Assembly (NCBI GenBank): GCA_964016885.1
Contig: OZ024749.1
Span: forward strand, 5,704,001 to 5,768,000
Direction: 5' to 3'
Source: Eledone cirrhosa
Lineage: Eukaryota
DNA: 64,000 nucleotides
Of the stretch, positions 13,170 through 17,913 are shown in pieces. The notes beneath the pieces are model-generated. The model was not told the DNA's origin, searched no databases, and saw only the letters and a program-made list of their open reading frames with translations. Numbering within the stretch: the stretch's first letter is position 1; each line of letters starts with the position of its first letter. Both the position numbers and the translations under genes were made by a program.

Positions 13170-13348
13170 GAAAAAGTATGACCCCGACGGCAGAGCTCAA
13201 GCCGTTTCGACGGCTATTTTTGGACTGAAATAACCGTCGAAACGGCTTGAGCTCTGCCGTCGGGGTCATACTTTTTCCTATTTCCCACTCTACTACACTG
13301 AGTATTGAGTACTCTGGTGCGTTATGGTCCATATGGCTCTTTACCACA
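13170..13348. mobile_element. Short (TA)n-embedded element with ~110-nt terminal palindrome (PLE pLTR-like, family P)
   Basis: Palindrome at 13170-13277 contains GAAAC-GGC..GCC-GTC. Homologs at 14893-15088, 17720-17912 and a partial copy at 14783-14870. Confidence 0.7.
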
Positions 13349-13432
13349 ATACTGGAAGGTAATATCCGTAGTGGTAGAGCACTCAGTCCATGGGACGAGT
13401 TAGGTAGAAGAGGTTACACATAACCATGCCCA

Positions 13433-13477
13433 ATACGTGCTGAGGATCCGATAAGGTGAAACAATTGTTCTCGGTAT
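13433..13477 (+). ncRNA. Degenerate minimal hammerhead ribozyme
   Basis: atacgtg CTGAGGA tcc gataa ggt GAAAC AATT GTT ctcggtat; stems are imperfect. Confidence 0.4.
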
Positions 13478-14892
13478 GGTGAACTAACTGTTGTGAAACC
13501 ACTTCTATATATATATATATATATATATATATATATATATATATATATATATATATTAATATGAATAAATGTAAATATTTATATATATATATGTATATAT
13601 TTACATATATATTTATGTATATTAATATGTATATATCTATATATATATATTATATATTTACACACACACACATTATATATATATATATAGAGAGAGAGAG
13701 AGACAGAGAGAGAGATTAATATATACCTATATTAATATATTTTATATATATATATATATGCATATATATATATATATATATATATATATATATATATATA
13801 GAGAGAGAGAGAGAGAGAGAGAGAGAGAGAGATATTAATATATACATATATTAATATATATATATATATAAATATATATATATATATATATATATATATA
13901 TATATATATAGAGAGAGAGAGAGAGAGAGAGAGAGAGAGAGGGAGAGAGAGAGAGAGATTAATATATACATATATTAATATATTTATATATATATATATA
14001 TATATATATATATATATATATATATATATAGGCGCATTGCAATTATACAAATATACAGATCAAATAGATGCACACAAATAGATCAGAAATGATGTTGTAC
14101 ACATCAAGAACGAATTATAATAAGTTAATAACCACAGCAGATTGAAAGTAAACACTCGTATACATAAATACACACCTATATATATATATATATACGTGAT
14201 ATATAATATATATATACGTGATATATAATATATATATATATATATATATATATATATTATGATTTATATATAATGTATATAATATATATATATATCATAT
14301 ATAATGAATCTAGTATATATATATATATATGTGTGTGTGTGTGTGTGTGTGTGTGTGTGTGTGCATATATACATACACGCGTATATACATAAAATATAAT
14401 CTATATATACACACATGTATAACGTATGAAACCATGGAAAAATGGACATAAAACGATGATTCGATATATACATAAACATACACATATATATATATATATA
14501 TATATATATATATATATATATATATATATATATATATATATATATATATATATATATTCTAATTATATATATATATATATATATATATATATATATTCTA
14601 ATTATATATATATATATATATATATATATATATATATATATATATATAGAATCATCGTTTTATGTCCATTTTTCCATGGTTTCATGTAAGTCCATTATTT
14701 TGAATGATGAACGACGATATCAATAGGTCTGAAGAGTGCTCGACTCTTCTGACCCCCTCCTCTCTCTCTCTCTCTCTCTCTATAGGAACGAGTAGAACCC
14801 CGACGACTGAGCTCAAGCCGTTTCGACGTCTAATTCTGGACTAAAATTCCTTACCACATTTCCTTCGTTATATATATATATATATATATATA

Positions 14893-15088
14893 TAGGAACC
14901 AGTAAGACCCCGACAGCTGAGCTCAAGCCGTTTCGACGGCTAATTCTGAGTCCAGAATTAGCCGTCGAAACGGCTTGAGCTCAGCTGTCGGGGTCTTACT
15001 GGTTCCTATTACCCACTCTACTACCTCAAGTATTGAGTACTTTGGTGCGTTATGGTCCACCTGGTTCCTTACCACATTTCCTTCGTTA
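14893..15088. mobile_element. Family P palindromic element
   Basis: Perfect-arm palindrome at 14893-15008 plus the shared tail gagtactttggtgcgttatggtcca...ttcgttata; flanked by (TA)n. Confidence 0.7.
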
Positions 15089-15861
15089 TATATATATATA
15101 TATATATATATATATATATATATATGAGAGAGAGAGAGAGAGAGAGAGAGAGAGAGAGAGAGAGAGAGAGAGAGAGAGAGAGAGAGAGACATTTGTTGGT
15201 CAGTTCGTAAGGAATCTATGAATAAATTTTACCTACTCTGTTTCTAACACTGTGCTTTAAGTACTGACTCCTGCCCTATCTCTCTCTTTCATCATATGAT
15301 TTACAATATATATATATATATATATTTACATACATATATATATATATATATATATATATATATATATATATATATATATTTACATACATATATATATATA
15401 TACACACACACACATATATATATATATATATGTATATATAAACATACACCTATATAAACATGCACATATATATACATAAATAATTATATATGTATATATA
15501 TACACATGTACATGTATACATATATTTGAATGTAGCTGGAGTCGAATATCTGAAGCCAGTTAATGAATTTTGTGTGTGTGTGTGTGTATGAGTGTTTGTG
15601 TGTATGTGCGTATATGTATGTGCGTGATGGTCATTTTGTAAAGGCAGGAATAAATAACATGAATTATGTTTTTAATATTAACTTCTCTGGATTTCTTTGA
15701 TGTTAATATCTTTCTTTTACACACGTACACACACACACTCTCTCTCACACACACACACACATACATAGGGCCTCACTTATGAAACACCAAAGCCGCTATG
15801 AACCATAACCTCTAGCGAGGTCAGCTTGACCTCAGTATAAAATTTATATTAAGGTCATTCA

Positions 15862-15950
15862 GGTTTAATGCTCATTTCGCAATTGATCAGCTCAAGCTTC
15901 GATCTCTATCGAACGGGCCCGTCTCTGGAATCAAATGCTCATCAGACTTC
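15862..15950 (-). ncRNA. Hammerhead-like motif with long stem II (family L), PLE pLTR
   Basis: Minus strand reads CTGATGA gcatttgatt...gatcaattgc GAAA tgagcatt; stem I is poor. Homologs at 54500-54592 and 57118-57206. Confidence 0.5.
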
Positions 15951-16199
15951 CGTCAGCTTATTAACGGAATTTTTCGCGTACATTTTCGTTCAAAAATACT
16001 TCATGTTACAATCCATGTATATATATATATATATATATATATATATATATATATATATATATATATATATGGACCTGTTATTTTTATCTAAAGACATGTT
16101 TTCCAATTCCATCACACCCTTCCCCTCAATCTATCTTATTTCTCAACACCTGATACACATCTGCTTTCTTCAGCAGGTATTTAGACGATATTCTTATCT

Positions 16200-16960
16200 T
16201 CATGTTCTCCCGTGAAGAGGTCAAGATATATACGGTTTTAGCGAAGAACGCCGGATCCTTGCCCCTACTCGACTTCCAACTGAGAGTTGCGGAATGGGGG
16301 GGGGGGGGTCTCATTCACACCAACTTCTACAGGATGGCCGCCTGCAGAGAACTGATTGTATATTATAAATCAGCCTTCCCACTCGATGCTAAAATCGGAT
16401 ACATGAGGAATGACCTCACATGTACCCGGAGCAAATGCAGCAAGGCGGAGGACCAAGCAAGCCAAGCACACTAGGAATACTTAAAGTAAATGGATACCCA
16501 ACATCGACCGTAAGTTGTCTTAGGTGCCTGAGACGCTGGTAGCATAGAACCTCCTCCGACACCTGCTTCCTGAAACTATCACACTTTAGTGAAACTATAA
16601 CCACGGTGATCTGCAAAAAAGTCCGCAAAGAGGGATTAGACAGGCGTTTAGCCCAATCCGGCCCTGCACTACGAAATCATCTATAAAAAAGTGACCCTGA
16701 AACAACACACATTGCATGCTGGCAAACTGCTCCATTCGTGACACAGGTATGTGCCAACGAACATATGTAGTTTAAGGCATTCAATGCAACAAATGCAAGG
16801 ACTTTTACTTCGGTAGTACCGTTAGACTTTTCTATATCCTCATTAAAGTACAACTCAATACACGCGCATCCTCCTTCAGAAAACACTTAAACATAACAGT
16901 TGCACTTGAAACTAGAGAGAGAAACGTAGGCAACCTTAGAATCAAAGAAGGAATACTAAT
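16200..16960 (+). pseudogene. Degraded Penelope-like element, RT C-terminal region
   Basis: NAGSLPLLD...TNFYRM...YYKSAFPLDAKIGYMRN..TRSKCS resembles the PLE motif LPFLD...T..YRK......SxHP..K.G......R...CS. Stops and frameshifts follow. Confidence 0.6.
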
Positions 16961-17719
16961 AACTAGATAAAACCCATAAATAAACAACAGATTAGAACTC
17001 AGCACACACACTTGCCTTCTGACATAATAAAGAACTCACGCATTAAAGCTAACTCTAAAGACAATTACAACTATACACACAACATTTGACAGATACACGC
17101 ACGCATACACTAGTTCAAACACATTACTCAATCCGGAATAGCTAAACTATCCAATCTACTGCAACTTGTAACAACATTCTCGTAAAATCATAAACAAAGG
17201 CACACAACGTTTGACAGGAACACGCACACACGACATAATACACGTCAGTCAGCAGACGACATCACTTCCGACAGCTTACAAACAATGGAAGACAAATTAC
17301 GAACCGTTAACAATAATAATACACAAACTCCGACTCAGTTTTAGACCGAAAATATTGAGACAGATAAATAAAATAACAGGTGACATATCAACATTTCGAT
17401 TGCCTTCAATATATTCCGAAATCAACTGTTCATTTGTATTGCTGTAGCAATACTTTATACACTACTTTATACACTACTTTATACACTAACACAATACTCC
17501 AAGGAAGCCACAACACCCATATATATATATAACCTTTCTGTATCTTTCGTTGTTGTTGTTGTTATATATGGCCAGAGTCTTCCGTCGGGTTTCTTGGTGT
17601 CACACTTTATAACTGTTGAGTTTACTCTGGACCTTAATGTCTTTTTAACTCTTCGCTCGATTGAGTATTTTGGGATTGCCTCAAACAAATCGAATTGTAT
17701 TTGCTTATATATATATATA

Positions 17720-17913
17720 TAACGAAGGAGTTGTGGTAAGAAACCAGATGGACCATAACGCACCAGAGTACTCAATACTTAGGGTAGTATAGTGGGTAAT
17801 AGGAAAATGTATGACCCCGACGGCAGAGCTCAAGCCGTTTCGACGGCTATTTCAGGACTGAAATAGCCGTCAAAACGGCTTGAGCTCTGCCGTCGGGGTC
17901 ATACATTTTCCTA
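17720..17913. mobile_element. Family P palindromic element (opposite orientation)
   Basis: Palindrome at 17800-17913; (TA)n on both sides. Confidence 0.7.

What the first reader, a model, noticed from the sequence alone, without database searches (positions are those of the whole stretch)
13170..17913. Family P elements: copy-specific perfect palindromes that appear to fold back at hammerhead stem II
Seen: three ~190-bp copies (13170, 14893, 17720) end in a ~110-nt palindrome. Within each copy the arms match almost perfectly, but the copies differ from one another (gtatgaccccgacggcagag versus gtaagaccccgacagctgag). One arm reads GAAAC-GGC-loop-GCC-GTC, i.e. hammerhead stem III plus a GUC site. 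The palindrome centre sits where stem II would be, and the CTGANGA half is replaced by the mirror image. Inference: the hairpin is regenerated at each insertion by cDNA snap-back self-priming at stem II, or kept by arm-to-arm conversion. This offers a mechanistic clue to PLE inverted ends.
Basis: partly seen in the sequence, partly recalled or inferred. Interest (0 to 1): 0.72.

Follow-up and report, generated by a model that had tools for sequence, protein, structure and literature searches.

The report
Penelope-like ends folded at ribozyme hairpin
These short repeats look like the known head-to-head inverted ends of Penelope-like retrotransposons, but all four copies join at the same small hairpin, probably part of a hammerhead ribozyme, and its loop occurs in both orientations, which may show how such ends are made.

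Summary
Arms differ by 2 of 150 positions within copies and by about 11% between copies.

The layout is a tail-less inverted arm ending at CCTAT, then a sense arm and a ~79 nt tail. This is the published head-to-head inverted end plus tail of Penelope-like elements (PLEs), and self-priming was proposed for it in 2013. A sibling family in the window has the same layout with an intact hammerhead core.

New here: the junction is fixed at one hairpin placed like hammerhead stem II, and its AGTCC loop faces the tail in two copies and is reversed in two. Plain snap-back gives one orientation only. Snap-back plus endonuclease resolution, or two target-primed cDNAs annealing through stem II, gives both. 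Replication template switching or assembly error could also reverse the loop.

No parent with CTGANGA was found, and no animal genome could be searched. 'Copy-specific' is mostly a two-subfamily difference. Verdict: a new variant of a known structure, with a testable but unproven mechanism.

The parts
13170..13219 (-). c1 outer (inverted, tail-less) arm; joins (TA)n one base short of the position used by c2-c4
13220..13227 (-). c1 spacer; the AGTCC loop reads on the strand opposite the tail (reversed form)
13228..13281 (+). c1 inner arm: putative stem II 3' strand, GAAAC (13239-13243), stem III, GUC (C17 at 13261), ending at CCTAT
13282..13349 (+). c1 tail, lacking its last ~12 nt
13350..13505 (+). 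Unrelated 156-nt element fused to the c1 tail, with a complete minimal type I hammerhead-like motif (CTGAGGA at 13440, palindromic helix III); ends in (TA)n
   Evidence: read by motif, no Rfam hit
14782..14870 (+). c4 partial copy: outer arm, reversed loop, 6 nt of hairpin, joined through TT microhomology to the last 24 nt of the tail
14892..14948 (-). c2 outer arm
14949..14952 (+). c2 spacer AGTC (same strand as the tail)
14953..15009 (+). c2 inner arm (GAAAC 14967-14971, C17 at 14989)
15010..15088 (+). c2 tail, ends at (TA)n
16079..17021 (+). Decayed, frameshifted PLE ORF (RT plus C-terminal GIY-YIG). Context only; not shown to be the parent of family P
17721..17798 (-). c3 tail
17799..17855 (-). 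c3 inner arm (C17 at 17819)
17856..17857 (-). c3 spacer; loop on the same strand as the tail
17858..17914 (+). c3 outer arm, one CpG-type mismatch
35822..36829 (-). Comparison family Q: two insertions (Q1 35822-36291, Q2 36495-36829) with the same tail/tail-less head-to-head layout, an intact CTGA(A/T)GA core and different junctions

Best explanation
Family P copies are short 3'-end insertions of a Penelope-like element (or a non-autonomous derivative), placed into (TA)n by a PLE RT/GIY-YIG protein in trans. The template RNA carries a type I hammerhead with a long (11-14 bp) stem II. cDNA starts at the tail end and runs through stem III and the core into stem II. There the cDNA is self-complementary, and this fixes the junction. 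Both arms therefore come from the same short RNA segment at insertion, and CTGANGA and everything upstream is lost. Two routes fit. (A) The cDNA snaps back and copies itself, and the endonuclease opens the hairpin at the tail boundary (CCTATT) on either strand. (B) Both target ends prime cDNA, one at the tail end and one at the internal site, and the two cDNAs anneal through stem II. Either route leaves the loop in either orientation, as seen. Shown: layout, arm identity, fixed centre, two loop orientations. Inferred: hammerhead origin of the hairpin, the RNA step, timing at insertion, routes A/B.
For: The layout matches published PLE ends: an inverted 5'-truncated copy and an optional tail at one end (PMC8557442 passages; PMC3846280). 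A Poseidon protein extends both strands, cuts at 5'-ATT-3' and has two RT start sites bounding the tail (PMC11167929). The P arm/tail boundary is CCTATT in 3 of 3 full copies. Family Q has the same layout with an intact core: Q1 arms differ at 1 of 187, while Q1 and Q2 arms differ at 15-16 of ~139. A half-hammerhead descriptor matches 6 of 7 P arms and 62 of 20000 shuffles of an arm. The five inner stem III pairs hold in 35 of 35 cells, and both changes there are G-C to G-U. C precedes GAAA and loop III is palindromic, as in PLE hammerheads (PMC4209133). The AGTCC loop is homologous in all four copies. Reversing c1 cuts its distance to c3 from 5 to 3 of 30, and c4 aligns better to reversed c2 (36 vs 28). 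The stem mismatches of c1 and c4 are U-G wobbles when the loop reads AGTCC. Central hairpins fold at -5 to -15 kcal/mol as DNA. Older palindromes in the window are not kept uniform.
Against: No parent with CTGANGA was found in the window or outside it. There is no significant Rfam match and no two-sided covariation in stem III. The descriptor also hits 23 other places in 128 kb. A 5-6 bp helix III is longer than in typical metazoan PLE hammerheads. Family Q has a long stem II too (-4.5 to -6.6 kcal/mol, overlapping c1 at -5.2), yet its junctions lie upstream of it. Arms are not significantly more conserved than tails (Fisher p 0.18-0.80). The P-Q tail likeness is weak (14-224 of 1000 shuffles score as high). 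The loop reversal rests on 2-4 bases in two copies, and yeast data show such spacers invert by replication template switching (PMC8604942 passages). The wobble argument has about a 1 in 4 chance level given two transitions. n = 4.
Confidence: 0.5

Rival explanations
1. Self-propagating palindrome. The fold-back arose once in an ancestor, and palindromic copies are now the masters. Each cycle re-copies both arms from the inner arm, and the existing hairpin fixes the junction, so no intact ribozyme parent is needed today.
For: The centre is the same in both subfamilies. No intact parent was seen. Arms are not significantly more constrained than tails.
Against: Stem III changes keep pairing by wobble, which is not expected in an RNA locked in a 57-bp hairpin. 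The central stem keeps imperfections, mostly in c1.
Confidence: 0.2
2. Post-insertion repair. A palindromic element inserts as a unit, and replication template switching or conversion then homogenises the arms and inverts the spacer.
For: Template switching gives both arm homogenisation and inversion of 2-5 nt spacers in yeast, repeatedly and reversibly (PMC8604942 passages).
Against: Other short-spacer palindromes in the window have drifted: 15 mismatches plus 5 indels in 330 columns, and 15 plus 1 in 182. c1 and c3 inner arms differ at 2 of 54 while their tails differ at 8 of 67 (binomial 0.04, Fisher 0.18). It does not explain the tail-less end fixed at CCTAT.
Confidence: 0.15
3. Not a hammerhead or PLE product: a fold-back or MITE-like DNA element, or a Helitron derivative, whose GAAAC...GTC reading is chance.
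For: No Rfam support. A local AGCCGT-CGAA-ACGGCT hairpin offers another fold. A Helitron-like inverted duplication also exists in the window.
Against: The ends are asymmetric, with no terminal inverted repeats around the whole element. The layout is identical to family Q, which has intact cores. The descriptor chance level is 0.3% per shuffled arm.
Confidence: 0.08
4. Assembly or amplification artefact: fold-back reads, or mis-oriented loops between long inverted arms.
For: Loop orientation inside a 50-57 bp inverted repeat is ambiguous for short k-mers (general knowledge). PLE inverted structures trouble assemblies. No reads were available.
Against: Four loci in two subfamilies share both the centre and the outer boundary. 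Arms carry mismatches. Aged palindromes exist nearby. An artefact is credible for the loop reversal only, not for the palindromes.
Confidence: 0.05

Closest known systems
Inverted pLTR plus tail of EN+ Penelope-like elements (Penelope/Poseidon, Neptune, Naiad; PMC8557442, PMC3846280)
   Same: Head-to-head inverted 5'-truncated copy, tail at one end only, AT-rich or (TA)n targets, palindrome at the junction; self-priming already proposed.
   Different: The whole insertion is under 200 bp. The tail is ~79 nt rather than 30-40. The junction sits inside the putative hammerhead at one fixed hairpin. The loop occurs in two orientations. No ORF is linked.
Poseidon PAc of Anolis in vitro (PMC11167929)
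   Same: Two RT start sites bounding a tail downstream of a type I hammerhead; ATT cleavage preference; both strands extended.
   Different: The parts read do not describe inverted products or a junction at stem II; there the ORF starts at stem II.
Type I hammerheads of PLEs and non-LTR retrozymes (PMC4209133, PMC7229834, bioRxiv 10.64898/2026.07.22.740005)
   Same: C11.1-GAAA, palindromic loop III, long helix II, short non-coding units.
   Different: P lacks CTGANGA and the 5' strand of stem I, so it cannot self-cleave. It is not in head-to-tail tandem arrays. Helix III is 5-6 bp.
L1 twin priming (seen in passages of bioRxiv 10.1101/2024.12.14.628481; original model recalled)
   Same: Both target ends prime cDNA and the products join by microhomology (route B).
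   Different: L1 twin priming gives an inversion of different RNA segments; here the same segment is duplicated as a palindrome.
Flip/flop terminal hairpins of parvoviruses (recalled, no call)
   Same: Near-perfect ~120-nt palindrome whose centre occurs in two orientations, explained by nicking and hairpin transfer (route A).
   Different: An analogy only. Each copy is flanked by (TA)n on both sides and there is no viral gene.

Membership tests
EN+ Penelope-like element | ORF with telomerase-like RT and GIY-YIG endonuclease in the element or in a linked parent | tested here: not met
   P copies have no such ORF. The nearby decayed RT+GIY-YIG ORF shows no similarity to P in its 3' region (177 and 262 of 300 shuffles score as high). 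Translated P frames found no proteins. A parent elsewhere in the genome could not be searched.
EN+ Penelope-like element | Inverted 5'-truncated copy adjacent at the 5' end, head-to-head | tested here: met
   polarity taken from the half-hammerhead and from family Q.
EN+ Penelope-like element | Tail present at one end only | tested here: met
   The outer arm stops at CCTAT and the inner arm runs on for ~79 nt; longer than the published 30-40 nt.
EN+ Penelope-like element | AT-rich or microsatellite target | tested here: met
   TA runs flank all three sites; c4 has only a short TA run after (CT)n.
EN+ Penelope-like element | Partial tandem (direct pLTR) structure | tested here: inconclusive
   c4 and c2 are tandem but separated by (TA)n; c1 is fused to an unrelated hammerhead-bearing unit.
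Type I hammerhead ribozyme | CUGANGA box 5' of stem II | tested here: not met
   Absent from all P copies; replaced by the mirror arm.
Type I hammerhead ribozyme | C11.1-GAAA, A15.1-U16.1 helix III and NUH cleavage triplet | tested here: met
   6 of 7 arms; 62 of 20000 shuffles; wobble-only changes in the five inner pairs.
Type I hammerhead ribozyme | Rfam model match at gathering score | tested here: not met
   HH9 13.6 bits against 52. The intact-core motifs at 13440 and 36189 are missed too, so the test is insensitive here.
Type I hammerhead ribozyme | Self-cleavage | not testable with these tools
   Needs a parent sequence and an in vitro assay.
Non-LTR retrozyme | Head-to-tail tandem units each with a complete type I hammerhead | tested here: not met
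   Dispersed palindromic monomers with half a core.
MITE / TIR DNA transposon | Terminal inverted repeats at both ends of the whole element | tested here: not met
   The palindrome covers only the 5' ~115 nt and the tail is unique.

The most novel reading that the evidence does not exclude
Hammerhead stem II acts as a programmed DNA-level fold-back or annealing site in PLE integration. It yields a hairpin intermediate that the GIY-YIG endonuclease opens on either strand at the tail boundary, as in parvoviral terminal resolution. The flip/flop loop would be the first genomic footprint of that intermediate. It would explain inverted pLTRs and the one-sided tail together, and could allow a ~195-bp self-regenerating palindromic parasite of PLEs.
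Probability: 0.2. Interest if true: 0.75.

Novelty: new variant of a known kind. Interest (0 to 1): 0.42.

Why it matters
How PLEs form inverted ends and one-sided tails is named as an open problem in PMC8557442, and the in vitro study leaves the later steps unvalidated. A high-copy family with a fixed junction, an asymmetric loop and subfamily variants is a natural reporter. Loop orientation and arm haplotypes across thousands of copies can separate self-priming with resolution from dual priming and from later repair. If the loop reversal is only replication template switching or assembly error, the finding is an ordinary example of a known PLE structure.

Tried and rejected
- Rfam scans of the window, c1 and Q1 gave no credible hammerhead; the miRNA hits are generic hairpins below gathering score.
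- A type II hammerhead reading was rejected by inspection: no conserved CTGANGA lies downstream of the GUC.
- Two exact-match scans of bacterial and archaeal genomes gave 0 loci each. This was expected and is uninformative for an animal repeat.
- Protein searches with translated P frames, meant to catch a parent's upstream sequence, found none among 3133 and 2 candidates; weak evidence.
- A word-index search with the RT fragment found none among 41 candidates; the full HMMER search found 31.
- Names for those hits could not be looked up, so clade and host are not confirmed.
- The idea that the adjacent PLE ORF is the parent is unsupported.
- The idea that arms are more constrained than tails is not significant.
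- A shared P/Q tail motif is suggestive only: best 14 of 1000 shuffles, among 21 comparisons.
- Folding of single inner arms and tails was no better than shuffles (z -0.4 to +0.3).
- c1 and c3 as the two ends of one 4.7-kb parvovirus-like unit was rejected: each copy has its own (TA)n flanks and the interior is microsatellite and other repeats.
- Metagenome and viral collections, animal genomes and raw reads stayed unchecked.
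Full report
Setting. The window is AT-rich (19-44% GC per 2 kb), microsatellite-rich animal DNA with no N and decayed retroelements. Some repeats resemble octopus repeats as I recall them; no call tested the host.

Observation. BLAST and nhmmer find family P only between 13166 and 17915: three near-full copies and one partial. The palindromes are c1 13170-13277 (50-nt arms, 1 mismatch, spacer 8), c2 14892-15009 (57, 0, 4) and c3 17799-17914 (57, 1, 2). 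None of 200 shuffles folds as well. Over 50 arm columns the within-copy differences total 2 of 150 against 10.7% between copies. Seven columns are mirrored in both arms and two are not. Six of the seven separate c2 from c1 and c3, and one separates c3 from c1 and c2. Arm matching has therefore been re-established at least two or three times. Matching at every insertion is an inference.

Anatomy. In hammerhead sense each copy reads: (TA)n, outer arm (antisense), central hairpin, inner arm, tail of about 79 nt, (TA)n. The outer arm stops where the inner arm reads CCTAT; c1 stops one base earlier. CCTATT marks the arm/tail boundary in 3 of 3 full copies. c1 lacks the last ~12 nt of tail and runs into an unrelated 156-nt unit with a complete minimal hammerhead-like motif at 13440. 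c4 (14782-14870) has an outer arm 6 of 50 different from c2, the loop and six more bases, and then the last 24 nt of the tail, identical to c2.

Is it half a hammerhead? A descriptor (Y-GAAA, helix of 5 bp or more, loop 3-12, U-H) matches 6 of 7 arms, 62 of 20000 shuffles of an arm, and 23 other places on both strands. The descriptor was written after seeing the motif. The five inner helix III pairs hold in all 7 arms, with two G-C to G-U changes and no two-sided change; the sixth pair holds in 3 of 7. C before GAAA and a palindromic loop III agree with PLE hammerheads (PMC4209133, parts 1-2 of 4 read), but the helix is longer than usual there. CTGANGA is absent, and Rfam gives only HH9 at 13.6 bits. 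Rfam also misses the intact-core motifs in this window. So P looks like the 3' half of a type I hammerhead but is not a ribozyme.

The centre. All four copies share a loop AGTCC at the same place. It lies on the tail strand in c2 and c3 and on the opposite strand in c1 and c4. Reversing c1 lowers its distance to c3 from 5 to 3 of 30. c4 aligns to reversed c2 at 36 against 28. Read with AGTCC as sense, the stem mismatch of c1 becomes U-G and the RNA fold improves from -11.8 to -12.6 kcal/mol; c4 has one such pair too. c1 has 3 mismatches in the central 13 pairs, and c2 and c3 have none. This fits a natural, slightly imperfect RNA stem inherited from a parent, but the evidence is a few bases.

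Context. Family Q has intact CTGA(A/T)GA cores, a 14-bp stem II and the same tail/tail-less head-to-head layout in (TA)n. Q1 arms differ at 1 of 187, Q2 arms at 2 substitutions and 2 indels in 105 columns, and Q1 and Q2 arms at 15-16 of about 139. Q junctions vary and lie upstream of the core. In Q2 the ~38-nt spacer is antisense on the tail strand, that is the reversed form, with parent polarity known from Q1. A third family at 44472-45163 has 325-nt arms with 15 mismatches and 5 indels, and a 40-nt tail starting CTATT. A decayed RT plus GIY-YIG ORF at 16079-17021 matches PLE-type proteins: 31 hits, best E 5e-15; 8 of the 11 scanned carry RVT_1 and/or GIY-YIG. Its 3' region is not similar to P. 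The layout is thus general for PLE-type elements here. What is special to P is the fixed junction.

What is known. Inverted 5'-truncated copies and one-sided tails are standard PLE features, and the tail is ascribed to endonuclease resolution of an intermediate (PMC8557442, passages; PMC8969392, passages). Arkhipova et al. 2013 read palindromes at head-to-head junctions as self-priming (PMC3846280, passages and whole Discussion). In vitro, Poseidon cuts at ATT, extends both strands, is modelled as a dimer and starts RT at two sites that bound the tail (PMC11167929, parts 1-2 of 4). Oppositely oriented hammerhead pairs 100-700 bp apart were noted in PMC4209133. Also seen: bioRxiv 10.64898/2026.07.22.740005 (parts 1-2 of 5), PMC7229834, PMC6765202, bioRxiv 10.1101/2024.12.14.628481 and PMC8604942 (passages). 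Searches showed no paper describing a junction fixed at stem II or two loop orientations in PLEs. The library is partial. Arkhipova 2006, Evgen'ev and Arkhipova 2005, Pyatkov 2004 and Lunse 2016 were seen only as references, and no supplements were read. Any of these may bear on novelty.

Mechanism. Plain snap-back of a tail-primed cDNA leaves the loop on the tail strand only (inference). The reversed form needs one of three things. (A) The fully copied hairpin is opened at the tail boundary on either strand. (B) Two target-primed cDNAs from the two start sites anneal through stem II, and the loop heteroduplex resolves either way; c4 looks like an aborted product of this kind but could be a later deletion. 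(C) The spacer inverts after insertion, which is documented for 2-5 nt spacers in yeast. Against C as the source of arm identity, older palindromes in the window have drifted. C remains open for the loop alone. I put formation at insertion with the junction set by a parent's stem II at 0.5, with A and B not separable here. Self-propagating palindromes get 0.2, post-insertion repair 0.15, a non-PLE origin 0.08 and artefact 0.05.

Results against the reading. No parent was found, though no animal genome was searchable. Arm-versus-tail constraint is not significant. P-Q tail similarity is weak. Q's stem II is about as stable as c1's yet does not fix its junctions.

Verdict. The feature is real. 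It works like the known PLE inverted end, but it cannot be filed as a PLE member without a linked ORF. The fixed hairpin junction and two loop orientations are a modest new variant with a clear genome-wide test. Interest 0.42.

Noticed in passing
window 35822-36829, 38162-38294, 53797-53993: Family Q: four copies with intact type I hammerhead-like cores, long stem II and palindromic AT-rich helix III. Q1 is a 187-bp palindrome with no spacer.
   Followed up: partly
window 13350-13505: 156-nt unit with a complete minimal hammerhead-like motif fused directly to the c1 tail; possibly an RT template jump between two families.
   Followed up: partly
window 28735-28865 (-): Another complete hammerhead-like motif (core at 28804, palindromic helix III) with a short partial tandem repeat beside it.
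   Followed up: no
window 44472-45163: Aged 325-bp-arm palindrome with a 1-nt spacer, 40-nt tail starting CTATT and TA flanks. A GAAACGCGTC motif points toward the centre with no clear CTGANGA.
   Followed up: partly
window 29318-30243: Helitron-like element (label recalled) whose 3' part is duplicated in inverted orientation, 15 mismatches in 182 columns.
   Followed up: partly
window 16079-17021 (+): Decayed Penelope-type RT plus C-terminal GIY-YIG ORF with frameshifts, between c2 and c3.
   Followed up: partly
window 17535-17706: TA-flanked unit weakly similar to the P arm and tail (3, 64 and 53 of 1000 shuffles score as high for c1, c2, c3); possible distant relative without a palindrome.
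   Followed up: partly
window 13170-17914: All P copies cluster in 4.7 kb. Three sites drawn from the 76 TA arrays fall this close in 4.3% of trials.
   Followed up: partly
window 14426-14685, 36950-37027, 37617-37908, 38017-38068: Further short inverted duplications centred on or flanked by (TA)n.
   Followed up: no
window 23092-26431 (-): Broken non-LTR retrotransposon with RVT_1 matches.
   Followed up: no
window 14933-15088 (+) and homologous frames in c1 and c3: One sense frame stays open through inner arm and tail in all three copies (about 40 codons). No protein matches were found, so it may be chance.
   Followed up: yes
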